A DNA stretch of 63,407 nt, filler included. It is 9 parts of 9 records of this genome, joined end to end, with 100 filler letters (N's around TTAATTAATTAA, not from the genome) between each part and the next. Parts side by side here need not be neighbours in the genome. Positions count along the whole stretch, not along the records: positions 9,186 to 33,158 come from SRR7504441_7209; 8 more parts are not named here. One strand, 5' to 3'. This document shows, piece after piece, positions 5,165 to 58,931 of the stretch (position 1 is its first letter; each line of letters starts with the position of its first letter). The notes beneath the pieces are model-generated. The model saw only the letters and a list, made by a program, of their open reading frames with translations. It was not told where the DNA came from and did no database searches. The position numbers and the translations under genes are program-made.

Positions 5165-5264
5165 NNNNNNNNNNNNNNNNNNNNNNNNNNNNNNNNNNNN
5201 NNNNNNNNTTAATTAATTAANNNNNNNNNNNNNNNNNNNNNNNNNNNNNNNNNNNNNNNNNNNN
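5165..5264. other. Artificial contig-joining spacer (first of eight)
   Basis: N44-TTAATTAATTAA-N44, which puts stops in all six frames. Identical spacers at 9086-9185, 33159-33258, 37082-37181, 41874-41973, 47265-47364, 52802-52901 and 58832-58931. Confidence 0.97.
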
Positions 5265-5536
5265 AGTTGCCGGCGCAGCAGGCGGGCTCGCCCGGCTTGA
5301 ACATGGCCGCCAGGTCTCCGATTTGACACGAGATGCAACAGCAACCGTAGCAACACCTGAGGGTCAGTTAGCTCCTTGGGGGGAGGGGGGGGGGGCGCTT
5401 ACGTTCCGCACTCGGGCTGGCAGCAGTCGCAAAACCCGGTGGAGAACATGCCGTTCACCGGTGGGAGGGCCTGCATCCACGGCGCGATCACCGTCGAGTT
5501 CTGCACGTACACCGCCTGAGGCTGGGCTACTGCCAT
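5265..5536 (-). CDS. PLAC8-family cysteine-rich protein, 3' end cut by gap
   Basis: Spliced (intron 5357-5402) it reads MAVAQPQ...FSTGFCDCCQPECGTCCYGCCCISCQIG, the PLAC8 signature. The supplied ORF track misses it. Confidence 0.85.
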
Positions 5537-9085: not shown

Positions 9086-9185
9086 NNNNNNNNNNNNNNN
9101 NNNNNNNNNNNNNNNNNNNNNNNNNNNNNTTAATTAATTAANNNNNNNNNNNNNNNNNNNNNNNNNNNNNNNNNNNNNNNNNNNN

Positions 9186-12003
9186 GGAGCCCGAGCCCGA
9201 GCCGGAGCCCGAGCCCAAGATGGAGCCGCCCGAGGAGGGCGAGGAGGAGCCGGAGGCCAATCCGAACGAGCCCGAGAAGAAGAAGCGGGTGCTCAAACGG
9301 GACTTGCTCAAGCGGAGGTTTGACGAGGAAGTGGCTGAGCCGTGGGTGCAGTGCGACAGCTGCCAGCACTGGGTGCATCAGCTGTGCGTCATGTACAACA
9401 CGGCGGCCTCGTTCTCTGAGCAACAGGCTGCCGAGTCGGTGCCGTTCTACTGCCCTCTGTGCAAGCTGCGAGGCAGCCAGCGTGGCGGGAAGGGCAACTC
9501 AAATGGAGTGAGCATACCCCCTGTCCCGGCCTCGGGTGGCGCCACCAAAAAATGGTGCGCGGTGAGCCTTCCGGAGAACACAATGAGCATGTTCATCCAA
9601 GAGCGGGTGCGCAAGAGGCTTAAGGAGATGGGTGAGAGCAAGGCAGCGCCAACGGTGGTGGTTCGGATTGTGTCGACAGTGGAGAAGACGACCGATCCTT
9701 CGGAGATGCTTCGCAAGTACTTCGCCCCGCCGACTCCGGAGCAGCTGCAGGAGCAGGGTCGGATGGACGAGAACGGGCAAGTCAAAGACGTGCCACTGTC
9801 CAAGCGATATGAGATGCCGGCCGGGTCACCGCTGCCGACAGAGATGCCGTACCGGTCCAAGACGCTGCTGCTGTTCCAGCGGCTGGATGGGATCGACGTA
9901 TGCCTCTTCGCCATGTATGTGAGCGAGTATGACGCCGACTGCCCGGGTCCAAACAAGCGGCATGTGTACATAGCATACCTAGACTCTGTCGAGTACTTCC
10001 GGCCACGCACCCACAGGACCGCCGTGTACCACGAAGTACTGTGTGCTTACCTCGAGTATGCCAAACAGCGCGGGTTTGTCGCGGCGCACATCTGGGCCTG
10101 CCCTCCCCTGCGAGGCAACCACTTTATCTTCTGGAGCCATCCAGCGCACCAGCGGACGCCATCGCGTGAGCGGCTCGTCTCTTGGTATCTGGCTATGCTC
10201 ACCCGGGCCAAGGAGCTTGGGGTGGTCGAATGTGTGAGCAACCTGTACTCGACCTACTTCAAGTGCGCCTCCACATTGAAGGAGGGCGGTGTGGGCAAGA
10301 AGGTTGGTAAGGGCAAGCATGCTGCTCAGGGGAAGAAGGCAGTAGCTGCACCTGCGATAGCGGCTATTGCCCACGGGATGCCTGCTGGTCCGCCAGCAGG
10401 ACCTGACAGCTGCAGCGTCAGCATGGCTACTGGGGTCGGGGAAGTAGACGATGCTGCCAGCTGTGCCAAGTCTGGCAACTCTGGAGGAGTAGGGCAGGAA
10501 GCCTCAGGGGACTTCTCTCTGTGTGCATTTAATGCAGAGGAGGCCGCACAGCTTGGAGGCAACGCCAAGCACGCAATTGTGGACACTAAGGGGGCAAATA
10601 ACTGCCTGAATAGACCCTTCAGGTGCCCTCCAGTATTTGACGGGGACTACTGGCCTGAGGAGGCGCTGCGGCTCGAGCGAGAGACCAAGAAGCGCAAAGG
10701 GCTTGGTGTGGCGGATCGGGAGCACCTTCCAATAATAGAGCAATGCGAGGGCTTAGTTGCTGGATTGATGAACCATCCATCAGCATATCCGTTCAACGCC
10801 CCAGTTGACGCGAAAGCACTGAACATTCCAGACTATTATAAGGTAGTGACTCGGCCTATGGACCTGGGGACAGTCAAGAGTCAAATCAAGAGTGCCCACT
10901 ACACGATTGTTCAGGAGTTTGCAGACGACGTGCGACAAGTGTGGAAGAATGCTTGTGCTTATAACCCTGCGCGGCACCCAATCACTGCCATGGCATCAAC
11001 ACTCTCATCTCTGTTTGAAAAGGAGCTGCGTGCAATGTTCAACTGCTGGACTCAGAGCAAAATCAGCAAACTTGGGGCAAATACGCGCCTAGATGGGCAG
11101 AACACAATGGACGGAATGCTCGAATCTGATGATGATGACAATGGTGCCGACCCCGAGGATGATGTGGTGCTAGTGACAGAAGTGGTCAACAGTCCGCGTG
11201 AAACTGTGCAAAACAACGGCCCCACAGGGCTGGGGAACGACGTGGGCCTCTGGGGCAGCCAACCGAACAGCGGTGCGGCGAGAGGCAGGCACAGAGGCTC
11301 AAACCAGACCAAAAAGGTGACATCTGTGGTGCAAGGCCTGTCTCACCCGCGCGGTTGGGTACAGGGCCGGACTAAGAAGAAGAAGGGCACGCATGCCAAG
11401 GAGAAGGAACCGGAGATCAAGCAGAAGTATCACTCCATTGTCACCTACACGGCCAATTCGGTAAACTGCCAGGTCAATTTGTGCATAAATTTTCGTGGCA
11501 GGTCCAGTGCATGCGCGATGAGTTGCTGGTTGCTCGACTGCAACCTGTCTGCACGACTTGTGGTGAGTACTTTGTGGATGGATTCCGTTGGCACTGCACG
11601 GAGACCAACCTAGACTACTGTGGTACTTGCAAGGCGGATGTGAAGGAGCATCTTGTCCCCAACAAGGTGTCGGTTGGGGACACCAGTGATCCAGATACTC
11701 ACGTCACTGGAGGTTTTGTAGACTCTCGGCACACTTTCTTGGAGATCTGCCAGTTCCGACACTATCAGGTCTGCTTATGGTCCGACCAGCAGAATTGACT
11801 GTGGGCTGTTGCAGTTTGATACGCTGAGGAATGCAAAGCATAGCAGTGCCCAGATTGTGCACACACTGCATCAGCCATCTGGAATGACAAATGAGGAAGA
11901 GCTCAAGCAAGCTCACCGAGAGCTGCATCAGCTCGATGCTCCATCTTTTATGAATGACATGCACCTACTGCCCCCACGCGCACATGCTGTGCCCCATCGA
12001 TAA
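9186..12003 (+). CDS. CBP/p300-type (KAT3/HAT_KAT11) histone acetyltransferase with PHD-like finger, bromodomain and ZZ finger, 5' partial
   Basis: WVQCDSC, YIAYLDSVEYFRP, HIWACPP, RLVSWY, FDGDYWP; bromodomain PDYYKVVTRPMDLGTV...NACAYN; introns 11461-11501 and 11769-11814; C-terminal YQFDTLRNAKHSS. Confidence 0.9.
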
Positions 12004-12186
12004 TTCTGCACGGTGCTCTCCACTCGGTTCCATTTATTCATACAGTACGGTGCACAAGAGCAATCTAGAATCTGTTTAAAGTAAACAAGTTTGATACTAA
12101 TCTCGCCCATCTTGTACCGCACTGGCTAGCACATAAGCCTTGCCCAAGTCTTGCCCGTTCACCCCGTTGTTACATGTAGTCCGCAA

Positions 12187-14825
12187 CTAGGCTCCAATAT
12201 CGCAGCTACATCCAAGCGCGCCATTCCTCTTTGTTGCCAAGATGCCCACTTGTCCTGATCCAGAGTAGGGAATGCAGCAGCTGCACATGTGAACATCAAA
12301 GTCCTGTCCACCACCAACAATCGCAAACGACAGTTTGACCGTCTCATTTGGACTACCCATCACTTGCACCTTCAGCCCTCCGTCGTTTGGCAGCTGCTGC
12401 ACATCCGCCACGCGCTGTGACGACACTGGCACCCACTTGCTCAGTTCACCCAGTAGCACCACAGTGCCGTCGAGGATAGGTGCGAAATGCCAAAGGGCAA
12501 AGCTGATGCTGCTAGTTGAGGGCGTCAGCACGAGGGAATCGAAACGCTGGACCTTGAGTGAGGCGATGGGGACAGCACCCGGCTGAGCATAATCCAAAGA
12601 GAAGGCCAAGTATTCCTGGGCTATCGAGCCCTGTTCTGGATCCAGGCTTGTGACATCCTCAGGACGAACCGTGAAGGGCTGTTGCACAGCAGCAGCAAAG
12701 AGCATCTGCCAGCGTTTTTGTCGGATGACGGTGTACGAGCTCCAGATCTTCGGGGGCGGCGATACTGACCCAAACACGGCCTCTGTGAAAACTCGGTCGA
12801 TTGTAGTCGCTGGCCGCGCCGCCTTTAGAATTAGCCCATCGTCCCGGCAGCTGCGCTTGATGAGGCTAATGTCTGAGAATCCAATGCCATCGCCTGCCCC
12901 AGCACGTCATGTACATGTAACGCAACTAAGTTAGTTCACCAGGTGTCACTGGACCATGCGACAGCGTAGCGACACAAGCTTCGCGAACGACGTCTGGGTC
13001 GGAGGCATTTCCCACGCTGCTGTGTGGCTCCACAGCACTGCTCCAAAAATTATCTTTGAAGGGCTCCAACGCAAGAGCATGAGCCAGCATAGCCGACGAG
13101 CCCAAATGCCATTGCGTCTCGATTTTCCCAGGAACGTAGTCGTCAGAGGCCCGAATCTGAACCACAGATCCAATCTCGACACTTTGGAGCGCGTGGCCTG
13201 CACCGGCCCAACTCAGTCAAAGCAGGCTCGGATCTACGTACGAGGGTAGGGCATGCAGTACTGGATCCTCAGCCCAGCTTTCTCAGCAGCGGCACCCATT
13301 TGGAGCAACCAAGTGCGGGCTGCTGTTGCAGTTTGTGTTAGCAGCGGCACGCCTTTGAATTCATTGTACAGCCAATCTTGCTCGTAGGTGTATAGGCCCT
13401 GACCAGCAAGCCGTGTCAGACGAGATTGGCTGACCGCAGTGCTTTTAATACTCACCCATTCCTTGCTTGTGCTCATCAGCCAGTCCCAGAAGCCTTGCTC
13501 GAGCGGAACCACCATTGGGAAAGCGGCGTCCGAGAATCGCCACTGACCGCCATTCTGCTGCGCGTATGGTGTATTGTTTGACCAGTACCTGTTGTGTCCA
13601 ATGATAGGCCACCCTGTCTGCTCGTGGAAGCGCTTCAGCGCAGCATCGCCGCCGCCTGCAAAAATATCCTGCACCAGCCCAATTCAGTCAAAGCAGGCTT
13701 GGATTTACCTACCGGCCGAACGGTCCAGTTGGCCACCCCGCCGCCGTTGCCCTTGAAGTACCACCAGGAGTCGAGCAGCACGTGTCGGTAAGGTATATCG
13801 GAATGATTGGCATAATCCTGCAGCGCGAGCAGAGTTTGAGCCATGTCCTTGCCCTCTATTGGGTTGTAGTAATAAAAAGCTCCGTGGTCTGTATTGTACC
13901 CCAGGTAATTGTTTGTAAAGTCGTCCCTTCTGGCACTTGATTCGGGATCCTTGCCATACAATCGCAGGAGCTTGGCGCCCCAATCACACATCGCATTGTT
14001 CAGCCCGGAGCCGGAATGAGACACAATGAAGCTCAACACAAACCCAGCGGGCACTGATCGTACAGACCCAAGCAGCCCGGCAGCCAGGGTGCTAGAGTTG
14101 TCCAGCTTACCCAGCGAAGCAACCATGAACTGGGATGCGGCAGACAGCACAATCGCGTCCTTCCCAGTCGGATCAAAAAGAGCGAGCGGCCCGCCGTCAA
14201 CCCCAGTGGCCACCCCGCCGCTCGGCCACAGTCCGACCGCAGGCCCGTCTGTGCTCGAGTCCAGGAAGGTGCCGTGCCAGCCGACCGCCCCCAGCCGGGT
14301 GCTCCCCGCCTGGGCCAGTCCAAAGCTCGGGAAGCTGGACGAGACCTGGTCCAGCGAGGCTTGAGCGCACTTCTGCTCGCAGGCGGGCACTTTATTGATA
14401 TCACCCCCGGCGCACTCCGACTCGCAGTGCGCAAAGTCCGAGTGCGAGCCGGTGTGCCCCGTCTGGTTGATGCCGGTCACGAAGACCTGCTCGAATCCCA
14501 CCGTCGAGCCACTATCGTATTGCTTGAAGTTGGTCTGAGCTTCGAACCCACCGGCCGAGCCCCAGTGTAGAACCTGCCGGCTGAATCCGCCCAGCCCAGG
14601 CTCGTGCCCGCGCTCGGTGCGGTTGGCCACTAGTTTGAGCGAGCCGTCGGCCGAGGAGAGCCAGGTGTCTTTGACGAAGAATCGGGCGAGCGGGCCGGCC
14701 GACTGGAGCCAGGGCTTGCCGCCGACGAGCAGGCTGTACGACTGGCCGGACAGCGCGAGCTCGAGGGCGGGGCACGGTTGTAGCAGCACCAGCAGCAACA
14801 TTGCTGTGAGGGAAGCAGCCACCAT
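12187..14825 (-). CDS. Secreted glycoside-hydrolase-like protein (probably clan GH-D, alpha-galactosidase/raffinose-synthase-like)
   Basis: Signal peptide; YLGYNTDHGAFYYY, LLDSWWY, YEQDWL, IQYCMPYPRH, GPVTPGDGIG; introns 13669-13712, 13399-13455, 13198-13241 and 12894-12939. The family assignment is inference. Confidence 0.6.
13198..13241 (-). other. 44-nt GT-AG intron, near-copy of 13669-13712
   Basis: gtacgtagatccgagcctgctttgactgagttgggccggtgcag; phase 1; removal restores YPRHALQSVE. Confidence 0.88.
13669..13712 (-). other. 44-nt GT-AG intron, near-copy of 13198-13241
   Basis: gtaggtaaatccaagcctgctttgactgaattgggctggtgcag; phase 0; joins WTVRP to DIFAGG. Confidence 0.88.
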
Positions 14826-14896
14826 TGCTGCGGCCGACCTAGTCCAGCTGGAGTCTAACGGCATAATAACGGAAGACTCCTCGGGTGTGCAAAGGC

Positions 14897-15547
14897 ATGT
14901 CGTCGGGACGCAGCTTGCGGATCTGCGTCTACGGCTCGGCCTCGCCCAACACCAGCCCAGCGTACCTGGAGGCGGCCGAGCGGCTGGCCGAGCTGATTGC
15001 CGCGTCGGGGCACACGCTGATCAACGGCGCGGGTGCCAACGGGGTGATGGGCGCGCTGAACCGGGCGGCGATCCGGGCCGGCGGGCGGGTCGAGGGCGTG
15101 GCGCACGAGAACATGGTGGACGGACCGATCAGCGAGCTGCAGGCGGCTGGAATGCAGCTCCGGATCGCCCGGGGAAGCACGCTAGAGGAGCGGAAGCGGC
15201 TGCTCCGGCAGGGCTCCGACGCTTTCATCGCGCTCCCCGGCGGGCCGGGCACCTGGGAGGAGCTGTGGGAGGTGGCCAACCAGGAAAGCCTGTGGATGCT
15301 CAACCCAGTCGGCCGACCCGTGGTGCTGGTCAACACGCTCGGGTGCGCCCCTCCAAAGAATGCCGCTGTAATAAAAGGTTTTGGCAGGTTCTACGACGGT
15401 TCAGTGGCGCAGCTGGAGCGGGCGCACAAGGATGGGATACTGCGACACCCACCAGCCAAGCTGGTCAAGGCGGTGGGCACCCCCGAGGAGGCGTTGGCCT
15501 ACGTTGTCACGCACCCGACCTGCACCGCCCTAAGCTCCAAGCTGTGA
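14897..15547 (+). CDS. LOG-family nucleotide/cytokinin-riboside 5'-monophosphate phosphoribohydrolase ending in SKL
   Basis: ICVYGSA, GAGANGVMGA, ERKRLL, PGGPGTWEE; probable 45-nt intron 15343-15387. Confidence 0.88.
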   Translation: MSSGRSLRICVYGSASPNTSPAYLEAAERLAELIAASGHTLINGAGANGVMGALNRAAIRAGGRVEGVAHENMVDGPISELQAAGMQLRIARGSTLEERKRLLRQGSDAFIALPGGPGTWEELWEVANQESLWMLNPVGRPVVLVNTLGCAPPKNAAVIKGFGRFYDGSVAQLERAHKDGILRHPPAKLVKAVGTPEEALAYVVTHPTCTALSSKL

Positions 15548-27439: not shown

Positions 27440-28956
27440 ATGAAGCGCCTGGCTGGTGCAGTTCGGGCTCGGTGCCAGCGGCGGGCTCCTGCCTCTGGTG
27501 GCCGGCTGCCAGCGAGGCAGCTGGCCATTCAGCGCAAATCTAAGAGTGCCCAGCCCATCCCGGCAGTGACGGCCACCGACAAACTGACCGGCAAGTCGGC
27601 CGCACTGGACATCGCGCTGCAGCAGATCACCCGGGCGCACGGCAAGGTCAGCCCGACCGCCCTCCGGCCCGTCAGGCCGGGCCAGGGCGCACTGATGCGG
27701 CTCGACTCCAACGACGGCGTGAAGGACGTGCCAATCACCTCCACCGGATCGCTCGGGTGGGTCCGCTGCCGGGCCGGGCGGGAGGCCCTGGTGTCAGACT
27801 GGACATCGCGCTCGGAGTGGGCGGAGTCCCGGGCGGGCGGATCACAGAGATATTCGGTACCAGCCGGCGGGGGCGGCGCTCAGGCCCGGCAGGCCCGGAG
27901 GCGTCGGGCAAGACCACACTTGCACTGCACGTGGTGGCCGAAGCCCAGGCCAAGGGTCCACGGCCCCTACCACCGGGCGCCGAGCAGGCGGGCAGGCGGC
28001 ACTTGTGCGTTCATCGATGCGGAGCATGCGCTGGATGCCGAGTACGCGGCTGCTCTGGGCGTTGCGCATGACAAGCTGTACGTGGCTCAGCCGGACTCCG
28101 GAGAGCAGGCGCTCGACATTGTAGACACGCTGGTCCGGTCGGGCGCGGTGGACGTTGTCGTGGTTGACAGTGTGGCGGCGCTCACACCCCGGGCTGAGAT
28201 CCAGGGCGACCTGGGCGACCACCACATCGCGCTGCAGGCCCGACTTATGGGGCACGCGCTGCGCAAGATCACATCCTCTGTCTCCAAGAGCAAGACCACG
28301 CTCATCTTCATCAACCAGCTCCGCGAGAAGGCGCCCGGCCCGGCTGCCGGGCGTTTACATCGGGGCTCAGGTAGGGGTAGTGTTTGGCAACCCGGAAGTG
28401 ACGCCGGGTGGGAAAGCTCTCAAGTTTTACTCTTCAGTGCGGCTGGAGATTCGGAGGACTGGGCCAGTCAAGCGGGGGGACGAGATCGTGGGCAATGCGG
28501 TCAGGGTGAAGGTGCCCGGGGGCAACGGCGCGGGTGTCACTGGTCTCAGGTGGCTAAGAACAAGCTCGCGCCACCGTTCAAGCAGTGCCATTTCGATATC
28601 GAGTTCGGGCACGGCATTTGTCGTCTGGGAGAGACGATCGACATGGGCTGCGCCCAAGGAGTGCTAGCCAAGGCGCTGCCGGCCCGGAAGACTGGGCTGA
28701 GTGCGGCCAGGCTGGAGCTTGGATCCACTATGGCGACATTAGCCTGGGCCAGGGCCGCGAGAAGGCCAAGGATTATCTGCGAGAGAATCCAGAAGTTGCC
28801 AGAGAGGTGACCGAGTCTGGGCCGCTTCGCTCACCGGCTGGGCAGCTCGAGGAGGCCATACGGGCCCAGCAGCAGCCGGAACAGCCCGTCCCGAGCTTGG
28901 AGGAATCGGAGCAGCTTGAGGCTAGCGAGGCGCCTGGTACTGATGAGACCAAGTAA
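27440..28956 (+). CDS. recA: Nuclear-encoded organellar RecA (Arg-rich presequence suggests mitochondrion)
   Basis: [74 protein letters not shown]; eight spliceosomal introns of about 36-41 nt, two of them GC-AG (28331-28370, 28673-28710). Confidence 0.95.
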
Positions 28957-29308
28957 CCTTGAGCAAGGCAACGGTGTGCTAGAATATCGGCAAAATGTCG
29001 GCAGATAGTCGTAAGATAGTCGGTAGAGCTCATAGTTCAAGTGTTTTATCGCCTCCGGCTCAGCACTAAGCTTAGTTCAACACTAGCTCAACGCCGGTGA
29101 GACACCGGTACCTTACCGGTACCTAGATAATTATCGTAAGATTACAATTATCATGCAGTGCACCGTCGTGATACATGTACAATGAATTGTCATGATTGTA
29201 AAGGTCTGACATCCAGCTCAAGATTTATAAACAGAAAAGACAAAGAAAAGACTATAATCCTTGAGGACGGCGTGCGACGTTTGTGCCATCGATGAGCCCC
29301 AAATAGAA

Positions 29309-31519: not shown

Positions 31520-33158
31520 TCAGACACTCAAATAATAAAACTCAGGGATTGAATTAGGATCGAATGCCTGCAGCTTGCTCGGGTCGGCCTGCTTGCTGGG
31601 CGAGCGCTGCTGATGCGCCACCTGTACACCCACCGATTGCAGGCCAGAAACCCAGTTGCACTCATTACAGCTACAGTCTTACACGGTTGGAGTGAGTTAC
31701 CGCCTCTAAGTGCTGCTGCTTAGCACGCGCCTGACCAAGCGCTGCCTCCAGGTCGACCTGCATTCCCTGAATCAATAGTTTACGGATGAGCGCGTCAATC
31801 GCCTGCCGGGCCAGTGCTTTCCTTAGTGCAGCCTGCAGGGACACGGTACTGCCAGCCTGCGCCTGGATAGAGGTGAACCCCTGTTTTCAAGACCAGATCT
31901 GACCTCCAGTTGGCTGATGCGTGCTTCGCGCTCCCTCAGCTGCCCAGCCATGTTACTTTTAGTTACAAGGCAATCGTGTCACCTGCTGTTGAGCAGCCTC
32001 GGCCGACAGTGTTAGCTGCGTGAGTTGCTGCGAAACACCTTCCAGCTGCCCCCACATTCAATTCGAATGAGCATTGTCGTCAGACCTTCTGCTCCAGCCC
32101 AGCTGCCCGCGCCTCGGCCTGCCAGTCGGAGTCACGAGCTGTCTTCGATGTATCAACTCGCCTGTGCAAATCGGTCGGCTGCTTGCTGCCGCTCCTCAGC
32201 CGCCGCGTGTGACTGAGCCTAGCCAAGCCAATGACGAACGAATGGCTGAGGATCGCCTAACTAGGACTGACCTGCTCTGCGGCCTGAGCAGACCCTGCCT
32301 CAGCCACTTTACTCTGCAATCCGCAATGTCAGACTCGGAACTAAGAGGTGTGCTCGCCTCGAGTTGTTCTATCAATTCGGAGATCCGGCGGTCGCGCTCC
32401 GCCAGCCCCTGCTCCCGAATGGCGATCAGATCAATTCACAGGCGGCCAGTTGCCTGGTTTGGGAAGGCCTCCTGTCTACGCTCAGTCCGTGCCTGGGCCA
32501 GTTCCGTCTGCAATGATTCCACTCTCTGCTTCAGATACACGACCTCCTCGCCCTCCTCAGCCTGCCCAGCCATGCTTGAGTGGAACGTTCGAATCAAACC
32601 TTGAGCTTGCTCAGCTCGATCAAATACTCCTGTTGGCACAGAATCAGAACCTTTTTAGTATGATAAGCTAGTAATACCAACCTGTGCAATCAACCGCGCC
32701 TCGTGTGCCTCAGCCTTGGCCTGAAATAGCGGTTGTTAGGCAAGTGTGACCCACTCTACCAGCAGCCTGGGCTACTACAATATCCAATGGACCAAACCTG
32801 CTTGACCAACGGTTTGGCTTTTCTGTTGAGCACCCGAGCTTGGTCAAACTCGGCTACACCCCATAGCACACCCGACTTAGTTCCATCCATAGGCAGGCTG
32901 GCACCCTGCAGCTTGTGGAGTCGAGACTCTAATTGCGCACACCGGCCGCACGGCAACGCTACTGCTGCCACCGCTGATGTCTCTTCCTCTTCCTGCTCCT
33001 CTAAAGCTGGCTTCTGCGGCCGCAGTGCTGGAGCAGGCGCGCTCTTATCAGCTGCAGGAGTTGGCACAGCTGGGGCAGCCTCCTCCTCAACTGCAGGGGC
33101 CGTCACTACTGAGAGTACCCCCTCCTCGGCTCTGGGTGTGGGCTCTGCCGAAGCAGCC
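31520..33158 (-). CDS. Coiled-coil hypothetical protein, 5' partial
   Basis: Minus-strand E/Q/L/A-rich exons separated by short GT-AG introns; boundaries approximate. Confidence 0.45.
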
Positions 33159-33258
33159 NNNNNNNNNNNNNNNNNNNNNNNNNNNNNNNNNNNNNNNNNN
33201 NNTTAATTAATTAANNNNNNNNNNNNNNNNNNNNNNNNNNNNNNNNNNNNNNNNNNNN

Positions 33259-36200
33259 CCGGAGGGCCTGGCCGGCCGGGGTGGGCGGATACTGCAGCTG
33301 TGACATGATTCCGCAACCGCGCAGAGAAAACGGCAGCTGGCGGCAGCAGTGAGAGGAGACACCATGCCTGTGCCCTGGGAGGTCCAGCGGGGCTGGATGG
33401 AGGCCGTGTGGCTGGAGGACATCCCGCGGCTGGAGCAGCTCCTCGAGACCGGCCAGGCCCGCCCTCCCCGCCGGCCGCCCGCCAGCCCCGCCACAGGTCC
33501 CCATCGACTGCCAGCTGCCCTCCGTCAGCGCTGTGGGGGATGTCCCAGGTGCCCGCTCGGCGCTAGGACGCTCCCCGGCCGGCTGCTGCGCGGCCTGGAC
33601 TGGCCGGTGTGACTGGGGCGGGCGCAGAATTTATTCCGGAGCCTACTCTAGTTCGATGGAAGACTGGTGACCGCAGACTGCAGCGCTGACAGCAGCCCTC
33701 GGGGTGCAGGCGACACCGCGCTGCACTTTGCGCTGCGACAGCAGAAGCGGGCGTCCGTCGAGGTCGGGCCAGGGCTCGGGCGAAGGGTGAGCCCGGCGCA
33801 GTTGCTGGTGCGTTTGGGGGCGACCAAGGAAGGGGCGACCGTCACCAACGAGCACGAAGAGGATCCGAGGACTGTAGCCCAGACGATCGACGACTATTTC
33901 GACGCTGCCTCGACCGGCGACTTTGAGTCGATTGAGCCTCTTCTCGACCCGCACGACGAGGTGCGCCGCTGGTCGGGCGGACAGTCGTCAGCTGAGGTGT
34001 AGGTGCGGGTGGCGGTGTCAACTCTCGATCAGAATGATGCCTCCAAGCTGTTGGTGATCGCATGCAGGCTCGGCAGGCCTGCTCGCCCGGCTGAGAGTGC
34101 TGCGGCAGGATCGTTGCTGCCGATGCGCGTGCCTCAACAGCTAAAGTGCGCCCCGCTGATTATCGATCGGGCGAGCCATTGGCAGGTCCAAGTAGCAGCA
34201 GACACGGGCCAAAGCTTCGGCGAGAAGGTGGCCGTGAATGCCCCTGCAGCCTGATCGGATCCGGGCCAGGTTGCCAGGAGCATTCCTGCCAAGTGGGATG
34301 TGGGCTGCCAGTCAAGTCGGGTCTTTGACTGATTGCAGGTTCACGAGCTGCTTGTAGACCGGCCCGAAGGCGGCAGAATCGCGTTCGACCCCTCCACTAG
34401 CAGTGCGTTTGCCCAGCATAGCTGCATCTGGCCGGTGATTGTCTGTGCAGCCCGCACTTTGGAGCAAATGGACTTCCATTCGGGGTGCGTTGTCTTCCTA
34501 GTCCGCAAGCCACGGCCGCTCAAGATCGTGCTGCGCGGGTGCGCTGCAGGCTAGGCCCGCGCCCGAGCTTGTTCACCGCAGATGGGACGCGATGGCCATT
34601 GCGACCATGAGCTCGCCCTCGGCCCCATTCGCCGATGCCCAATTCGAGTTCAGGGCCCATCTCGTAAGCCAGTGCTAATGCCAGCGGTGCGCGGGCTAGC
34701 GGTCGGCAGGTACATAAATATTCCTGAACTGTCGGAGGAGCTGCCTGCAGACCCAGTGCGAAAGCTCACCGCTGAGGTGGGCACTGCTGTGCTACTGCAG
34801 ATCACGAGCCTGGGGTAGGTTGAAAGCCAGTTTGGGATAGTGCCTTTGGATCAGAAGTTGATGGCCCAGCTGATGGAAACCGACAACGCCCGACTGGCCA
34901 GGCACCAGGGCTGCAACGGCCTGCCTGATTCAGTGCAGGCTGAGAGTGGCGTATGAGGCGGCTGTTGAGTCCAAGGACAAGCATGCCGAGGACATGGCCA
35001 AGCAAGCTGTGGATACCTGCCAGGAGGCAATCAAGGCCCAGGCCGACCTGTTGTATGACAAAATCGAGGGCGACGGCGAGCAGGCATTTGACGGTGGGTG
35101 TTTTGTGTTCAATCTGTTTGCCCCAGCGATAGCCCTAGCCCTGACCCTGGCCCTGCCATTTTGGTGTGAATGGTCAGCGCTGCGGTTTGGGTATAGAGTT
35201 AGCGTTAGGGTTAGCAGGCGTTCAGATCTTTGACGGTGGGCTTGTTGCGTCGAATTCAGCGGGTCGGCCAGGCTGACTGGTGGTTGGTTCAGGGGAAGTG
35301 ATGCATCAGAAGAGCTTCAGTGATTATGCATTGATCAATTATCAAGAAATCCTAATCGAGCCTATCAAACTGTCAGTATTATCATGGCTAGTATAGCTAT
35401 CAAGAGCCCTGTGGCTCACTGAGCCATTGCTAGGGGGGAGTACAGACAGCCTGTGGTGGATGACGAACCAGTAGTGCAGAGCAGCAAAGAGACGCAGCTG
35501 GTCGAAGAGGTAGCCAGTGCTGTGCCTTGCTGGTTGGCTCACAGGCACACCCTAAAGGTTGCCCCACCGCTGCCACCACTCAACTACGGAGTCACACCTG
35601 GCGACAATGCGGGCGCTGCATTTGTCAAGTCACGATACTCTGAGAGCTTGGCGGTACCAGCCGCTGTGCCACCGCCCGTCTGGAGTGGTAAGCGGCTGGG
35701 TGGATGGTGATTGAGGCTGGCTGTAGACGAAGAGATTGTGGCTTACGGGAATCTGAGCACAAGCCACTGGGAAGAGCAATTGCTGCACAACCCTCAGGCG
35801 CCTTCTTAAACGAGCAAGCCCCGCGGCTTGGCTTGCTTGATCAGGAGCTGATCTCTTTGCGTGCAGGACGCGTACGCAATGCGCCGTTTGGGACGAGGGT
35901 ATCTGGCCTGTGGAGAGCAGACTAAGGCAGCCGAGCTCTTCAGCCAGGCACGCCCTGCTCGGTTGCTCCAATGCAAGCCTCTGCTGCAGGCACTCGCAGT
36001 GGACCCGGAATATTTCTACGCCAAGCGCGACCTCGCAATCGTCAAAGCGCTCCAGGGCGACAGCACCGAGGCACTGTTGCTGCTAAGACAGGTTCTGGGA
36101 GCGCTGTAGTCGATGATTCAGGAGTCAGGTTATATCTGATCACGATGGCCGTTACGCGCAAGCCTGGAGCGACATAGGGGACATCCTGGCATCTGAGGCC

Positions 36201-36805: not shown

Positions 36806-37181
36806 AGTTCTATACGCGCATTAGAGGGTTCAACTAATTACTCACTAATTACTTACTTACAAGTACGCATGATTGTAACTGACATGTAACTGACCGAATT
36901 AGGGCTCCCGTGGTTTCATAACCGTCCTTGTAAATCAAAGAGCCAAACCAACAATTGATTCTTCTCAATGTTTAATAACGTTGCTTTTACGTATTAAAGT
37001 GCGTAAACTTATTATACAAACTTGAGCACGCTCAGCGGTCAGCACTTTCGCTCACCGATTATCCACAGCCCCCGCCCCGAANNNNNNNNNNNNNNNNNNN
37101 NNNNNNNNNNNNNNNNNNNNNNNNNTTAATTAATTAANNNNNNNNNNNNNNNNNNNNNNNNNNNNNNNNNNNNNNNNNNNN

Positions 37182-37924
37182 GCGGATTCAGAACCATGAA
37201 CTTGCCTGGCCAGCCCAGCTGGCCCGGAGCCACTCCAGTGGCGCACCGTGCGACTTTGACTCGCGAGCCAGCCCAATCAGCCGCTCGAGAGGCTCCTGGT
37301 GCAGCGCAGCGGCCGCAGCGGCCATCTTCTCTTTGGGGAAGGCCATCTCCATCATAGGGGCCCGCAGCCGGCGCGGCAGCCGCTCCAGCGCCTGACCCAC
37401 CTGCCGCCGACTCAGTTGGTGGCACCGACCGGCCACTGCACCTCGGCGGCGCCTCGGCACTGGCGGAGCCACGTTTTGATGTCGGCGAGTGGCATCAGTT
37501 TTGGGTCCATTGACGCCCGCTGCGAGGCTGCCCGGTGAGACGACCGGTTGGTCATCGGTGGGGCCGGCTCGGTCTTGCTGGTCACCCCAGCGGCGGCCAG
37601 CGGCACGGCTGGCACGCGCCGGCGGGCCTCGTCGGGTGAGGGTGGCGGGTCGGTCCGGGGGGTGCGGCTGGCGGCCTCGGCCTGCTCGAGGGCTTGCCGG
37701 AGCTCGACTGCCACCTCGGCACGGGGGGACGGGTTGGCCATGGTGTCGGGCTTAGGATCCCGGAGCCGGTCATCCTTCCCGAACGTCGTCATCTCTCCCC
37801 GCAGTCTCCCCCCATTCTCGATCCTGTTCCAAATCAGTCGAACCCTGAGCTCATGCAATGACCAGCTGACGGGGATCCCGGCGGCCGGCGCATAATTATG
37901 GGCGAACATTGGAGGGGGTGGCAT
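37182..37924 (-). CDS. Hypothetical protein, probably 3' partial
   Basis: ORFs 37412-37993 and 37188-37472 link through a short intron; start uncertain. Confidence 0.35.
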
Positions 37925-39073: not shown

Positions 39074-41873
39074 ATGGCGGCAGCGGATGACCTGCCGGTG
39101 CGAGGGGGGGCGCGGGGCGCGGGCTGAGGGGCCGGGCAGAGCCTGCAGAACAAGATCAAGCGAGACCCGGAGTCTTACGAGGACGAGTTCACCGCCCAGT
39201 ATCGGCACTTTGAGAGCAGCCTGGAGCTCACCCGGCTCAAGCCGCACGCCGCCAGCAAGGAGTTCGCACTGCTCGTCATGTTCTGCTGCCACGTGCCCCG
39301 GACACCCGTGCGCCCGGCCCGAGCCCGCGGGGGCAGCTGGCGCCGCACTTTCGGGCGCTGACGGAGGGACTGGCTGCCGAGCTCACAGAGCTACTCGAGG
39401 CGCACTCAATGGTGCTGCCCTCGCGCGTCCGACGCGACCTGTGCAGGCACCGGCCGGGCGCGGGCTGGCCCAGACCGGGCCGGGCAGTGGGCTGATTCTG
39501 CTCCGGAACCGTGGCATGCTAGATCCTGCCGAGCTGCTGCCGCTGTTCTTCCGGCTGTTCCGTTGCCCTGACAAGGTGGCCTGATGCGGGGGTCGATCGC
39601 GAACGGCTGTCGGGCAGCCGCTGCGGACTCAGCTGTTCCAGCACATTGTGAATGACGTGACAAACATCAACAAGAAGCACCAGAATAACAAGGCGAGCGC
39701 CGTGCTGGAGGCTGGCTGAGCGCTAGTGACAGGTCAACTCTGTGCTGCAAAACTTCATGTTCCGTATGGTAACCGACAACAACGCGATTGCTGCCCGCTA
39801 CTCGCTCAAGGTGGCCCGACCGAACCGCTGCTGTGAGCCTGGGTAGGTGATCACAACCCTGTACAAGCGTAACGTGTGGACCGACGCAAAGACGGCCAAC
39901 GTGGTGGCGGCTGCATGCTTCTCCAAGGCACTCACCACTTGACACCGGTTGAGCGGCCGGGGGCAGCACTCGGTGCTGCTGATCAGGTCTCTGAGGTTCT
40001 TCCTGGGGGCTGACGATAGAGATGAGGACGAGATGGATTCACAGGACGAGGAGGAGGCGGCCGAGGTGCGCTCCATCCCTCATTCCAGGCAACACTGGCG
40101 GACAGGTGGTGGCAGTGGCGCGCGATGCGTACAACATCCACCATAAGAATACTGCTCCGAGCCACAAAAAGGCATCTGCGCCAGCACAAAGATCTCGGTA
40201 ACCAAGGGAGACAGGTACGTAACTACAAGCGCGCCCTCAAGAAAGTGAAAGCAAACGCCAAGAAAGAACGGCGAAGCAAGCCGGTGCACACTTCAACCGC
40301 AATGAAGCTGCTGCACGACCCGCAGAGCTTCTCAGAGAAACTGTTCAGCAAGCTCAAAAGCTCGAACGAGAGGTTTGAGATCAAGCTGATGATGATGGAG
40401 CTGATCTCGCGCTGCATCGGCACCCACGAGCTGCTGCTGCTCAACTTCTACCCTTTCCTGCAGAAATATCTCTCACCCCACCAGAAGGAGGTCACCAAAG
40501 TGCTAGCTGCGGTCGTACAGGCCAGCCACGCGATGGTGCCACCCGACTGTCTCACGCCGATTGTGGTCACCCTAGCTACCAAGTTCGTTTCAGACCGTTG
40601 CTCCAACGAGGCGATGGCGATCGGACTCAACACCATTCGCGAGGTGGCTTGCGAGGGGTCTGTGTGTTGATGGGTCTGGTAGATATGTGCGAGGCAGGCG
40701 CTTGTGATCACTGAGGAGCTGCTGCACGATCTAGCACAATACAAGAGTACTAAAGAGAAGGGCGTGGCTGCTGCAGCTCGGTCATTGATCGCGCTGTTCC
40801 GGGAGCTTTGCCCGGCTCTCCTGCACAAAAAAGACCGCGGGAAAGGCAACAGCAGGGTGTTGCTGCTGTCTGATCGGGTTTACGCAGGGCATGAGATGGA
40901 TAGGAAGCTCAAAGGGTATGGCGAGCTGGATGTGCATGATAACGTGGACGGGGCCGAGCTGCTGGATGAAAATGCCGGGCCAATCGGTGAGCTGCTGGCG
41001 ACCTAACCAAATTGAAGCGTGTTTGCAGCCGAGGAGGAGGAGGAGGAGGAAGAGTTTGAATTGGATGATGGGCAGGACGGAGAAGAAGAGGGCAGTGAAG
41101 AGGCGGATGACGAGGAGGAGGAGGACGCAGCGCAATCTGACGGCGAGGAAGTAGACGAGGGCGAGGACGACGAGCAGGTGGGCGCAGATGACGCTGTGAA
41201 GGACAAGGCCTCAGAGGCCCAGGCTCCAAAGCGGAGCGCTTCAGACATTATCGGGGATCGCATCTTGACTGAGGAGGATTTCGCCAAGATCAGGCGGCGA
41301 AGGTTGATGCAGCAGGTCGCCAAACTCCGAGGGGCCAATAAGATCCAGGGAACCAAGCGCAAGCTGGACGAGGTGTGTGCCTGCTGCGCTGCCTGGTAGC
41401 AAGCGGCGTGTGGCCAGTTGGAGGACATGGACGAGGCAGAGCTCGAAGAGGAGATCGGCGACACGGATGCTGTAGGCAAGCCATCCCTGCGCGTCGATGC
41501 GTCAGAGCTGCATGGGTGGCACGCCAAGAAGAAGCTGACTAAGGCGGAGCGAGTAGCATGTATTATGGAGGGCCGCGAGGTAGCCAGCGCGCTGTCAGCC
41601 AGCCGGGAGCCTATGGTTACAGGGGCGTGAGAAGTTCGGAAGAAAGAACACCAAAGGCGGTGGCAGCACCAATAAGGCGAAGGCAAAACGGAAGAATCTT
41701 ATGATGGCGTTGCAATCCGACCAAGTGCAAAACAAGTCAAAGCGCACCCAAAAGGCTTCCAAGGTTCGGCTGTTTGGGCTTGTTATTATTAAGGTAATCG
41801 GCTGGTCGCAGATGGCCAAACTCGAGCACCGGGCAAGGCAACGCTCCAAGGCACGGACCAAGCGGAATGACAC
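39074..41873 (+). CDS. SDA1: SDA1 ribosome-biogenesis protein, C-terminus cut by gap
   Basis: LPSLQNKIKRDPESYEDEF, LLHDPQSFSEKLF, ISRCIGTHELLLLNFYPFLQKYLSPHQKEVT, RILTEEDF; about 14 short introns, four with GC donors. Confidence 0.93.
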
Positions 41874-41973
41874 NNNNNNNNNNNNNNNNNNNNNNNNNNN
41901 NNNNNNNNNNNNNNNNNTTAATTAATTAANNNNNNNNNNNNNNNNNNNNNNNNNNNNNNNNNNNNNNNNNNNN

Positions 41974-45887: not shown

Positions 45888-47364
45888 AGCTCTGCCGACG
45901 CTCGCCAGCAGGTCCGACCGAGCTCGAGCTTGGCTACCACAGCACCGGGTCCAGTAAGCAGAGGCACTTGCAGGCATCCTTGATGCCCTCGCTTGACTCG
46001 ACCCGATCCTCAGTAACATCCATGCTGAGGCTGTAGCAACGCTGGCAGCCGATATACCGGACGCCGTGTTCTTCTTCGGTGCGGGATCGACAAGACTAGT
46101 GACTAGGGAGCAAATCAGCGATGCCAGTGGTGCCCACTGGCGTCTAATGAATCTAAGGTAGCTCGCGTCTGTGCAACCATCATCTCATCTAGCCACATAA
46201 GTAAGGTTATGTCACATAACCTTCAAAGACACCAACTAAAAGAGCATTAACTCTAATAGATCAGTCGGTGTCTCGGCCTCAACATGTAAAATCGTTCTAG
46301 GACGGCCTCTACTCCGGAGAGGAGGTAGTAGCCACTGGAGAGCATAACTCAATCAACGGTAGCAGCCGTAGCACTCGTTCTAGGCGGACCAGTAGCGGAC
46401 CAGGAGGTCTTCTCACACACTCAAGTCTATTAGTAGTCATAGTCACGGGAGTCATATTCGCTGTCTGAATACGTGTATGAGTGCGTGCTTTCAGTGTAGC
46501 CCTGTCCCTCGGAGCTGAGCTCACTTTCCTCCTCCCCAGGGTCGCCATGACCATAGTCGTACGTATACTCAGTTACTCACCACACTTATGGAGCCAGCTT
46601 GTGCTCCTGTCATGCTCCGGTGTGCTGTCAGAGTAATCCTGTCCTTCAGCGGCCAAGCAATCTTTGTGGCTATTCAATGCACCCTGTAACAACACGTTTT
46701 CCATCTCAGCCTCTTCAGCTCTGTCTTCTGCCTCGCCCATTGCTCCAGACATCACTTTAACACCACTGACGGCCGGCCGGGTCCATCGGGGCGATTGTTC
46801 CCGGCCAGGGGGGTGGTCGTTGACTGGCGTCCTTCGGGCGTTGGGCGGTGTCAGCATCCCCCTCCGTAACTAGTGGGGGCTGACCACGCCCCCTCCGTAA
46901 GCCACGTCGTACACGCGCTACAGGGAGCCCCCCGCGGGTACCCCGCGCGCATGCTTCCGCGTATTTGCCCTTGTCCACATTTCATCAATTAATTTCTCTG
47001 CACACTATCTGCATGTGGATCCTCCTCTGAAACCATTTTCTCGCAATTTCGCCATTTCAGCCTGCTCTGGAGATTGCAGAGTAATTGCACAGAATGCAAG
47101 TAGAATTCTAGTAAAATTCTAGTACCTAGTACTTTACTGGTACTTAAATACAAATGTACATGTATGCAAATATAGTTCATTCAAATAAACTGCATTGGAA
47201 ACTGTGCCGAGTGTGCGACCTTCAGCTTTGACTTTGCTGTCGCCGAGTGCCCCTCATCCATCTCNNNNNNNNNNNNNNNNNNNNNNNNNNNNNNNNNNNN
47301 NNNNNNNNTTAATTAATTAANNNNNNNNNNNNNNNNNNNNNNNNNNNNNNNNNNNNNNNNNNNN

Positions 47365-48086
47365 AGGGCCACCGCTTGGTACGACCCGTCCGCGCGCCAG
47401 TTGGTGGCAAAGCCGACAGGGGTGCAGCAGAGCTCGCGCTTGCTCTCGTTCCGGGGGGCCAATGTTCTGCTGCACGCGCCTAAGGGTCCGGGCACCCTTC
47501 AGAGAGGATCGAGCCTTGTTGCCACCATCACCGCTCCTCTAGCAACAAATCCAGACCCACGCCAGGTCCGGGCTCAGCCAGCCGGTTAGGGCCAGTTACC
47601 TAGGTATAATGTGCTGGCCCGCAGGCTGTGCACACTGTGCTTCTGGTACCGGCAGACTCAACGGCGCTAGGCCAAGAGATCAAAGCGCTGATGGAGCCCA
47701 ACGGCCCGAGTTCTTTTGCGGCCTCATGCGAGACACTAGACCAGGCTGACCACCGTGCTCAGTTGGAGTGTATCTGCGAAGCTGGAACGGTCGGTTTGGT
47801 TCTGGTGCTCGACAACAGTGGCAGTGGCAGCTTTTGGCTCGAGAGCGTGTTGGCTCGTCGCGTCTCTGGGCTGGAGGCTACGCTCGGCCAAGCTGTGGTC
47901 CTGGATCAGACCAACGCCTTGTGGGCTCCTGTAGCCGGAATCTGCCAGCGCAGTCTCGTGGTGTCCCTCCCCCTGTCACGCAGAGGCGCCGATTCGGCCC
48001 TCAAAGCACTCGATGTTGCGCTGCCCCGCGATTTCAAAACGCTCTTCAGCACAGATGTCACAGCGTGCCTCAATAGCTTGTTATAA
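47365..48086 (+). CDS. Hypothetical protein, 5' partial
   Basis: ORFs 47401 and 47628 link through a probable intron and end at an AT-rich 3' region. Confidence 0.4.
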
Positions 48087-52631: not shown

Positions 52632-52901
52632 GGCAGTAGTTCCGTTCCAACGGACACCACTGCAGCATCATGGACCGGCTGACCGGGTCTCCTGGATCGG
52701 GGAGCTATCGGGGAGCTCCCTCCTCCAGCAAGGGCGGGATATAACCGACGGCGGACCTCATTCATGTCATGAATGACTCTCACCGGATGACTCTTATATT
52801 TNNNNNNNNNNNNNNNNNNNNNNNNNNNNNNNNNNNNNNNNNNNNTTAATTAATTAANNNNNNNNNNNNNNNNNNNNNNNNNNNNNNNNNNNNNNNNNNN
52901 N

Positions 52902-53303: not shown

Positions 53304-53611
53304 ACATCACCCATGGCTATCATGGTGCTTGCCTCAGAAAAAAAAATGTGTCATTCGTCTACTACAGTATGTACGAGTAATCTTATGTACCCGTAATGGC
53401 ATATGCTCGCGTAAACGTGCCGTGCCCTTACCGTGCCTTAGTATAAGCCTTTCGTGGAAGCAACTCCGCAGCTCGTCGAGTCTACGCTTAATTCAAGCTG
53501 CACTGACGTACGCATCGCTTCAATCGCTCACGCGCTCATCTAATCGTCCGTAGTGACTTAGTAGTGACTCCGCACCGATGCTGAAACCCTGGCCAGGCAT
53601 GTGCTGCAGCT

Positions 53612-58530: not shown

Positions 58531-58831
58531 TTACATCAGGTCAGAGTGTACACGGTCGTAAACCACTTCCCGCGGAATAAGGTCAGACTTGAAGCTGATG
58601 ACTTGCGGATCAGAACACGTCTGGACTTGATGTCGCGTCTCTGCTCGCAGAGACGCGACATCGAGTCTAGCAAGCAAGAACATCGAGATAGCAAGCAAGC
58701 ACGAGAGCAGCACCAGCGGCCCGATACCAAACTCTAGGTCAACCATCACAAACATGGCCATCCCGCTCCCCAGCACAACAGACAGGACCACGAACATCCG
58801 GACCGGCACCTGCACTAGTGCACGCCTGGCC
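58531..58831 (-). CDS. C-terminal fragment with two TM segments, 5' partial
   Basis: Hydrophobic ORF 58531-58815 preceded by an acceptor-like site. Confidence 0.4.
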
Positions 58832-58931
58832 NNNNNNNNNNNNNNNNNNNNNNNNNNNNNNNNNNNNNNNNNNNNTTAATTAATTAANNNNNNNNNNNNN
58901 NNNNNNNNNNNNNNNNNNNNNNNNNNNNNNN

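What the first reader, a model, noticed from the sequence alone, without database searches (positions are those of the whole stretch)
13198..13712. Two near-identical 44-nt introns at unrelated sites of one gene (introner-like copying)
Seen: introns 13669-13712 and 13198-13241 match at 39 of 44 bases. They are in different phases (0 and 1), and identity stops at the splice sites (one shared exonic G at most) with non-homologous flanking exons. I see no terminal inverted repeat or target duplication, and I noticed no similar intron elsewhere in the window. Established: introners are families of copied introns known from Micromonas, Aureococcus and some fungi. Inference: either a very small introner family, or local intron transposition by reverse splicing into the same transcript, which would explain two copies 427 bp apart.
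Basis: partly seen in the sequence, partly recalled or inferred. Interest (0 to 1): 0.78.

Follow-up and report, generated by a model that had tools for sequence, protein, structure and literature searches.

The report
Copied 44-base intron within one gene
One gene of an unidentified marine protist carries two almost identical 44-base introns at unrelated positions, a rare natural trace of an intron being copied, although without the whole genome it cannot be said whether the copying was local or part of a wider mobile-intron family.

Summary
On the minus strand, 13712-13669 and 13241-13198 are GT..AG segments identical at 39 of 44 bases. The 60-base flanks match at chance level, 16 of 60 and 15 of 60. 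Among 393 GT..AG 44-mers in the window, the next best pair matches at 26 of 44. Both segments interrupt an 828-aa gene in phases 0 and 1. Removing them improves the alignment to 66 of 67 and 67 of 67 homologues. The flanking exons are not homologous. There are no terminal inverted repeats, no target duplication and no third copy in the 63 kb window.

So one intron is a copy of the other, or both are copies of a third. An intron-exact unit, sense orientation and a 427-base spacing fit spliceosome-mediated transposition within the gene, as proposed for four Oikopleura intron pairs. A dispersed introner family cannot be excluded: no genome is held and two metagenome scans found nothing. No transcript of this organism across either intron was found. 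I rate this a new member of a known kind, of moderate interest.

The parts
13669..13712 (-). Intron copy B: 44 nt, GTAGGT...GTGCAG, phase 0, between codons 384 and 385 of the host gene
   Evidence: It is 39 of 44 identical to copy A. No tblastn HSP of any of 67 homologues runs through it, and 48 of 67 show a frame-switching HSP pair at it. Removing it raises the alignment score for 67 of 67 homologues, median +633. An RNA contig of a relative (under 90% alike) leaves the window exactly at 13712/13713 and continues with exon-2-like coding sequence.
13198..13241 (-). Intron copy A: 44 nt, GTACGT...GTGCAG, phase 1, splitting an Arg codon (residue 508) in the conserved PRH motif
   Evidence: Of 67 homologues, 30 show a frame-switching HSP pair here with a residue gap of -2 to 3. 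Another 31 give one long gapped frame-2 HSP that passes over it, which is possible because exons 2-3 and exon 5 share a frame. Removing it raises the alignment score for 66 of 67 homologues, median +362. A DNA contig of run X4 covers 13173-13321, the intron included, with 2 other letters.
13399..13455 (-). Unrelated 57-nt intron (phase 0, in frame, no stop codon) lying between the two copies
   Evidence: Removing it improves 66 of 67 homologue alignments, median +29. It shows no similarity to the pair.
12894..12939 (-). Unrelated 46-nt intron (phase 1)
   Evidence: Removing it improves 66 of 67 homologue alignments, median +184.
12187..14864 (-). Host gene. Five exons (14864-13713, 13668-13456, 13398-13242, 13197-12940, 12893-12190) plus the stop codon at 12189-12187. 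It encodes 828 aa with a hydrophobic N-terminal stretch (a signal-peptide reading is by eye only, not tested) and belongs to a conserved family that has no Pfam model.
   Evidence: Gene model. HMMER found 1345 relatives at E<=1e-3. The closest named ones are Salpingoeca rosetta PTSG_04123 (43%) and Diplonema papillatum DIPPA_32060 (39%). There was no Pfam hit. An AlphaFold model of the Salpingoeca homologue (pLDDT 92.4) resembles GH36 alpha-galactosidases: Foldseek E 2.9e-22, TM 0.65-0.70, 12% identity to 7exg. RNA contigs of run X2, 99% or more alike, cover 12508-12782.

Best explanation
The two 44-nt segments are ordinary-sized spliceosomal (GT-AG) introns of one gene, and one is a copy of the other. 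The copied unit is exactly the intron, from the G of GT to the G of AG. It carries its own donor site, a TGAC/CTGAG branch-like motif and its own acceptor. The most likely route is spliceosome-mediated intron transposition in cis. In that route the excised intron, still held by the spliceosome on the gene being transcribed, is reverse-spliced about 370 nt away (in mRNA distance) into the same nascent transcript, or into the displaced DNA strand of an R-loop at the same gene. It is then fixed in the genome by reverse transcription or repair synthesis with a short recombination tract. Shown: copy relationship, intron status by homology, intron-exact boundaries, non-homologous flanks, same gene and same orientation, and no transposon marks. 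Inferred: the reverse-splicing step, the direction of copying, and that the event was a gain rather than a replacement of an older intron at that position.
For: Copy relationship: 39 of 44 identical against 16 of 60 and 15 of 60 in the flanks, with 26 of 44 the next best among 393 GT..AG 44-mers. Among 11 mapped introns of two genes, the pair scores 34 and the next best pair 11. Intron status: removing either segment restores collinearity with homologues, for 66 of 67 and 67 of 67. Residues of P0003 run 334|335 and 458|459 across the two sites. The frame changes 3>2>1>2 along the gene. Not a repeat in the protein: BLASTP finds no alignment at E<=100 between the exons upstream of each copy or between those downstream. 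No DNA-transposon marks. Only two copies in 63 kb, both in one gene and both in sense. [quoted passage not shown] An R-loop model and two transpositions caught in yeast are cited in PMC11146597 and PMC4540971. A length of 44 nt is normal here: 11 mapped introns measure 38-57 nt.
Against: The genome is not available, so other copies elsewhere cannot be excluded. No RNA of this organism spans either intron. Laying four runs gave no joint. The only RNA contig at the copy B junction comes from a relative under 90% alike, and that organism may simply lack the intron. The copies differ at 5 of 44 positions, so the event is not very recent, or the copying was error-prone. An unrelated intron (13399-13455) survives between the copies. 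A classical full-length cDNA recombination would tend to erase it, so a short conversion tract, an unspliced template or the R-loop route must be assumed. Neither insertion site is a canonical MAG|R protosplice site: they read CCG|G and CTC|G. Reverse splicing into a new site has never been shown in vivo for natural genes (PMC3443670).
Confidence: 0.55

Rival explanations
1. Both introns belong to a dispersed introner family of the RNA type, without inverted repeats or target duplications, like fungal introner-like elements and some algal families. Further copies would lie elsewhere in the genome, and two of them landed in one gene.
For: Similarity that begins and ends at the splice sites and falls at non-homologous positions is the operational signature of introners (PMC9860276, section 15 read). 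Introners are over-represented in aquatic species, 39 of 230 against 35 of 1367. Family median lengths run from 30 to 654 nt, so 44 nt is within range (PMC9860276). The 11% divergence suits an older family. The window samples only 63 kb of an unknown genome.
Against: There is no third copy in 63 kb, even with nhmmer run without filters. That stretch holds intron-rich genes: 7 or more introns in the RecA gene alone, none of them similar. If a small family were spread at random, its only two sampled members would rarely fall 427 bases apart in one gene; this is inference. There were 0 exact hits of the 22-nt core in JGI metagenome contigs and 0 in viral contigs. The single hit in 596 Gb of prokaryote genomes is a Vibrio contig, about what chance predicts by my arithmetic.
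Confidence: 0.3
2. The copy arose at the DNA level. A double-strand break or replication template switch in the gene was repaired using the nearby intron as filler template, and only an insertion that happened to be a complete intron survived selection.
For: Filler DNA is usually copied from nearby sequence, which would explain the 427-base distance. Intron gain during break repair has been proposed for Daphnia and others (PMC3443670, Table 1 passage).
Against: The copied block matches the intron to the base at both ends, which break repair does not predict. There are no short direct repeats or microhomology at the junctions; the longest flank repeat is 3 bases, at inconsistent offsets. The flanks are unrelated.
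Confidence: 0.08
3. There was no copying of an intron as such. The similarity would reflect an old internal duplication of a gene segment, convergence of very short introns under splicing constraints, or an assembly artefact.
For: Very short introns share donor, branch and acceptor signals. The window is a concatenation of short contigs from a fragmented assembly.
Against: The flanking exons are not homologous, and the protein is collinear with homologues of about 750 aa without any extra segment. Unrelated GT..AG 44-mers reach at most 26 of 44, and other introns of the same gene score 11 or less against 34. The copies differ at 5 sites and lie in unique sequence. An independent or source DNA contig spans copy A with its flanks.
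Confidence: 0.04

Closest known systems
Nearly identical intron pairs (NIIs) of Oikopleura dioica (Denoeud et al. 2010, known to me only through passages of PMC3879977, and PMC3443670)
   Same: A pair of nearly identical spliceosomal introns at different positions of the same gene, with no family elsewhere reported, interpreted as reverse splicing of an intron into its own transcript.
   Different: The host here is an unidentified marine protist with ultrashort introns (38-57 nt), not a tunicate. The copies are 89% identical rather than nearly identical. Absence of further copies is shown only for 63 kb. I did not see the original Oikopleura data, so intron lengths and distances cannot be compared.
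Introners and introner-like elements without transposon marks (Micromonas IEs, fungal ILEs; PMC3879977, PMC4540971, PMC9860276, PMC11146597; passages read, plus section 15 of PMC9860276)
   Same: Sense-oriented introns with similarity confined to the intron, at novel positions, lacking inverted repeats and target duplications, short and non-coding. A spliceosome-mediated spread has been proposed for them.
   Different: Published families have at least 4 or 5 and up to more than 2,000 copies per genome, whereas only two copies are known here. The fungal elements are described as longer than regular introns with stable predicted structures (PMC3609843, abstract in the listing). These copies have the ordinary intron length for this organism and no significant fold, z = -1.09 and 0.16.
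DNA-transposon introners (families with TSDs and TIRs; PMC9860276, passages)
   Same: Insertion creates a spliceable intron and leaves the mRNA length unchanged.
   Different: Terminal inverted repeats and target-site duplications were looked for and not found. The similarity ends exactly at GT and AG, rather than recruiting a splice site from a duplicated target.

Membership tests
Spliceosomal GT-AG intron | GT...AG boundaries on the coding strand, with removal restoring an open frame that is collinear with homologues | tested here: met
   Searches give the boundaries, the phases and an 828-aa open product; removal is better for 66 of 67 homologues (copy A) and 67 of 67 (copy B); 30 of 67 and 48 of 67 show frame-switching HSP pairs at the sites.
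Spliceosomal GT-AG intron | Spliced out of the mature RNA of this organism | tested here: inconclusive
   no joint in 4 of 4 runs laid. RNA contigs 99% or more alike cover only exon 5. One RNA contig of a relative (under 90% alike) passes from exon 1 straight into exon-2-like sequence at the predicted junction.
Same-gene nearly identical intron pair (Oikopleura type) | Two near-identical introns at non-homologous positions of one gene | tested here: met
Same-gene nearly identical intron pair (Oikopleura type) | No further copies elsewhere in the genome | tested here: inconclusive
   None in the 63 kb window. The genome is not held. Metagenome scans were empty.
Introner family (operational definition of Gozashti et al. 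2022, PMC9860276 section 15) | Intron-intron similarity that starts and ends near both exon-intron boundaries | tested here: met
   identity covers intron positions 1-44, and the flanks match at 16 of 60 and 15 of 60.
Introner family (operational definition of Gozashti et al. 2022, PMC9860276 section 15) | At least four introns in the family within one genome | not testable with these tools
   Only 2 copies in the window, and no assembly is available. The definition was read.
Introner family (operational definition of Gozashti et al. 2022, PMC9860276 section 15) | Host proteins of the similar introns are not similar to each other (paralogue filter) | tested here: not met
   Both copies lie in the same protein, so as I read the method that pipeline's protein-similarity filter would drop the pair. 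The exons flanking each copy are themselves not homologous.
DNA-transposon-type introner / MITE | Terminal inverted repeats and/or a 3-9 bp target-site duplication | tested here: not met
   the best terminal inverted match is 6 and 7 of 12 over 169 offset combinations. The longest flanking direct repeat is 3 bases, at different offsets in the two copies.
Internal tandem or segmental duplication of the gene | Homology extends into the flanking exons, and the protein has an extra repeated segment | tested here: not met
   Searches show no flank homology. Searches show collinearity with homologues of about 750 aa.

The most novel reading that the evidence does not exclude
An ordinary resident intron copied itself once, in cis, into a second site of its own gene through the spliceosome. 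That would be the elementary step from which introner families are thought to start, caught before any genome-wide spread, in a lineage whose introns are only 38-57 nt long. If so, this gene and its orthologues in related marine populations offer a natural before-and-after pair for testing reverse-splicing or R-loop models of intron gain.
Probability: 0.4. Interest if true: 0.65.

Novelty: new member of a known kind. Interest (0 to 1): 0.45.

Why it matters
How new spliceosomal introns arise is a long-standing open question. Transposon-type introners explain many gains. Spliceosome-mediated transposition rests on very few natural traces. By one 2012 review, 14 events in Mycosphaerella and Oikopleura had been identified (PMC3443670). 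Two events captured in yeast are cited in PMC11146597. A clean same-gene pair, with intron-exact boundaries, no transposon marks and non-homologous flanks, adds one more such trace from a different branch of eukaryotes. Published introner screens remove intron pairs whose host proteins are similar. In my reading that filter would also discard same-gene pairs, so such events may be under-counted. The value is limited because the organism is unidentified, the genome is not at hand and splicing is supported by homology only.

Tried and rejected

**Collection scans.**
- The 22-nt intron core gave 0 hits in JGI metagenome contigs and 0 in viral contigs.
- It gave 1 hit in prokaryote genomes, a Vibrio contig (L001). 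By my arithmetic about 0.3 chance matches are expected, so I treat it as chance and did not follow it.
- The search for related loci with exon 1 on metagenome contigs matched 53 pattern stretches, none confirmed by tblastn.

**Sequencing runs.**
- All 23 listed runs hold at most 0.10 of the sampled words.
- Four were laid. No joint appeared, no cover of copy B by a contig at 95% likeness or more, and no RNA of this organism over either intron.
- This says nothing against splicing. No habitat or strain claim is made from these small shares.

**Weak third copy.** The candidate at 34910-34954 (64%; nhmmer E 0.32) was rejected because it starts with ATAC.

**RNA structure.** The fold z-scores of -1.09 and 0.16 are not significant. 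Rfam gave 0 matches on 12900-14000 at E<=1.

**Organism identity.**
- The CSN3 search returned 2 unnamed hits.
- The RecA search returned mostly unnamed or alphaproteobacterial-like RecA.

- The search of earlier findings returned nothing for this genome or sequence, and only unrelated group II intron notes by words.

**Pfam with the full spliced protein.** Single exons given by reference had 0 families.

**tblastn 'read-through' at copy A.** In 31 of 67 homologues a single HSP passes over copy A. I consider this an artefact of exons 2-3 and exon 5 sharing a frame, and one search supports that view.

**Unseen sources.** I did not see the supplements of the cited papers or the original Oikopleura paper. 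They may hold details on same-gene pairs.

Full report
**What is there**

The window is eukaryotic DNA. It was assembled from nine short contigs joined by runs of N around a TTAATTAATTAA linker. The finding lies in the contig spanning about 9187-33157.

The gene is on the minus strand. From the ATG at 14864 I built a five-exon model with four GT..AG introns:

| Intron | Length | Phase |
|---|---|---|
| 13712-13669 (copy B) | 44 nt | 0 |
| 13455-13399 | 57 nt | 0 |
| 13241-13198 (copy A) | 44 nt | 1 |
| 12939-12894 | 46 nt | 1 |

The spliced product is an open 828-aa protein.

**The observation**

- The two 44-nt introns are identical at 39 of 44 positions without gaps.
- Four of the five differences are transitions.
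- Identity covers the intron exactly. The 60 bases upstream match at 16 of 60 and the 60 downstream at 15 of 60, which is chance level. Only the first exonic G after the AG is shared.
- A degenerate 44-mer with up to three mismatches finds only these two sites, and 0 of 100 shuffles reached two matches.
- Among all pairs of the 393 GT..AG 44-mers in the window, one pair reaches 39 and the next best reach 26.
- nhmmer without filters gives E about 4e-13 and 5e-13 for the two copies and 0.32 for the next hit. That hit, at 34911-34945, starts with ATAC and is not an intron copy.

**Are they introns?**

No Pfam family matches any exon. The protein nevertheless has 1345 relatives at E<=1e-3 in the HMMER library.

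I ran tblastn with the 67 relatives of 700-900 aa against the gene:

- In P0003, residues 27-334, 335-458, 459-547 and 547-739 map to 14741-13713, 13668-13240, 13195-12935 and 12891-12241, in frames 3, 2, 1 and 2. The homologue runs without a break across both 44-nt segments.
- At copy B, 48 of 67 homologues show such a frame-switching pair of HSPs, and none reads through.
- At copy A, 30 of 67 show a frame-switching pair, with a residue gap of -2 to 3.
- Another 31 of 67 give one long gapped HSP in frame 2 that passes over exon 4. This is possible because exons 2-3 and exon 5 share a frame.

To settle this I scored each homologue against the product with all four introns removed and against products that keep one intron. 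Removing copy A is better for 66 of 67 (median gain 362). Removing copy B is better for 67 of 67 (median gain 633).

Direct RNA evidence is thin. Of the 23 public runs holding a small share of the gene's words, all are marine or seawater metagenomes or metatranscriptomes. I laid four of them:

- No joint was seen.
- RNA contigs 99% or more alike cover only 12508-12782.
- A DNA contig of run X4 spans 13173-13321, copy A included.
- One RNA contig of a relative (under 90% alike) matches 13712-13766 and then leaves the window exactly at the predicted exon 1 end. Read by hand, its next 30 letters encode DIFPEHGGGD, against DIFAGGGD at the start of exon 2. That confirms where the coding sequence resumes. 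It does not show whether that organism has an intron there.

**Not a protein repeat, not a transposon**

- BLASTP finds no alignment at E<=100 between the exon parts upstream of the two copies, or between those downstream.
- The protein is collinear with relatives of about 750 aa.
- The ends of the element have no inverted repeat: the best match is 6 and 7 of 12 over all offsets tried. No flanking direct repeat is longer than 3 bases.
- Neither copy folds better than shuffles, z = -1.09 and 0.16.
- Rfam has no match on 12900-14000.

**Context**

- Introns in this organism are very short. Besides the 44, 57, 44 and 46 nt introns here, spliced fitting of the neighbouring RecA gene to a RecA protein gave seven introns of 38-41 nt with 72-82% GC. 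Two of them have GC..AG ends.
- So 44 nt is an ordinary intron length here.
- Among these 11 introns the pair scores 34 in global alignment and the next best pair scores 11.
- The CSN3 gene aligns in one frame over 434 residues, so intron density is uneven.
- The organism could not be named. The closest named relatives of the host protein are from Salpingoeca rosetta (43%) and Diplonema papillatum (39%).
- An AlphaFold model of the Salpingoeca homologue (pLDDT 92.4) resembles GH36 alpha-galactosidases (Foldseek E 2.9e-22, TM 0.65-0.70, 12% identity). The host gene is therefore probably a glycoside-hydrolase-like protein; its hydrophobic N-terminal stretch looks like a signal peptide by eye, which no tool tested.

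**Mechanism**

The facts shown are:

- The copied unit is exactly the intron.
- Both copies are in sense orientation in one gene, 427 bases apart in DNA. That is 370 nt apart in spliced mRNA, by the exon lengths.
- The flanks are unrelated.
- There are no transposon marks.

These are what intron transposition by the spliceosome predicts. [quoted passage not shown] An alternative route is insertion directly into the displaced DNA strand of an R-loop at the transcribed gene (PMC4540971, passages; PMC11146597, passages). [quoted passage not shown] Each pair lay within one gene, and they were ascribed to reverse splicing (PMC3879977, passages).

Several points count against this route or remain open:

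- The unrelated 57-nt intron between the copies survived, so a full-length spliced cDNA cannot have replaced the region.
- The two sites (CCG|G and CTC|G) are not classical protosplice sites.
- The 11% divergence means the event is not fresh.
- It could have replaced an older intron rather than created a new position.

**The main rival**

The main rival is a dispersed introner family.

- For it: similarity bounded by the splice sites is the working signature of introners. They are enriched in aquatic species. Family median lengths of 30-654 nt include 44 nt (PMC9860276).
- Against it: there is no third copy in 63 kb that includes intron-rich genes. It would also be unlikely, by inference, for the only two sampled members of a scattered family to sit 427 bases apart in one gene.
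- The decisive test, a search of the whole assembly, could not be run. Two scans of metagenome contigs returned nothing.

Templated break repair is a weaker rival because it does not predict base-exact intron boundaries, and no junction microhomology is seen. Internal duplication, convergence and assembly error are close to excluded.

**Verdict**

- The interpretation as intron copying is supported. The choice between local transposition and a small family stays open, and I lean towards local (0.55 against 0.30).
- It is a new member of a known, rare kind, not a new kind.
- The published introner pipeline removes pairs whose host proteins are similar. As I read it, this would discard same-gene pairs, so such events may be under-reported.

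Noticed in passing
window about 5165-5265, 9087-9186, 33158-33258, 37082-37182, 41873-41973, 47265-47365, 52801-52901, 58831-58931: Eight N-runs of about 100 bases, each with TTAATTAATTAA in the middle, show up as the largest 'repeat family'. They look like artificial joins between contigs, so the window is nine concatenated contigs and gene order across these points means nothing. Only the join at 9087-9186 was read as sequence.
   Followed up: partly
window 27509-28962 (+), RecA-like gene: A bacterial-type (alphaproteobacteria-like) RecA gene is broken by at least seven ultrashort introns of 38-41 nt with 72-82% GC. One more in-frame intron of about 39 nt near 27850-27900 was not resolved. 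Two introns (28331-28370 and 28673-28710) fit best with GC..AG ends and share their first 15 or so bases; 47 of 2000 shuffles scored as high, so the similarity is weak.
   Followed up: partly
window 12187-14864 (-) and relatives P0151, P0003, P0152, P0159: The host protein belongs to a conserved family of about 750 aa found in diverse eukaryotes and some bacteria. It has no Pfam model and no sequence match in the PDB. An AlphaFold model of the Salpingoeca member resembles GH36 alpha-galactosidases. The invariant DSWWY-type motif lies just upstream of intron copy B.
   Followed up: partly
window 13198-13241 and 13669-13712 (-), intron positions 13 and 37: Two of the five differences between the copies (G13/A13 and C37/U37) fall on one base pair of the hairpin predicted for copy A. 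That pair would be G-C in copy A and A-U in copy B. With only two sequences and non-significant fold energies, this may well be chance.
   Followed up: no
window 14864-14900: The host gene's ATG (14864, minus strand) and the first ATG of the divergent LOG/lysine-decarboxylase-like ORF (about 14897, plus strand) are only about 30 bases apart. That implies either a very compact bidirectional promoter or a different true start for one of the genes.
   Followed up: no
window 12000-14000 against its neighbours: The 2-kb bin holding the two introns has the second-lowest GC of the window (0.542, against 0.55-0.69 for most bins). The four introns of this gene have 48-59% GC, whereas the RecA introns have 72-82%.
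   Followed up: no
window 53569-53613 / 54706-54750 and 53659-53727: Two further short direct repeats were listed: 45 nt at 78% identity, 1137 bases apart, and a tandem 33-nt pair at 94%. They lie within ORFs at 53585-55034 and look like coding repeats. I did not examine them.
   Followed up: no
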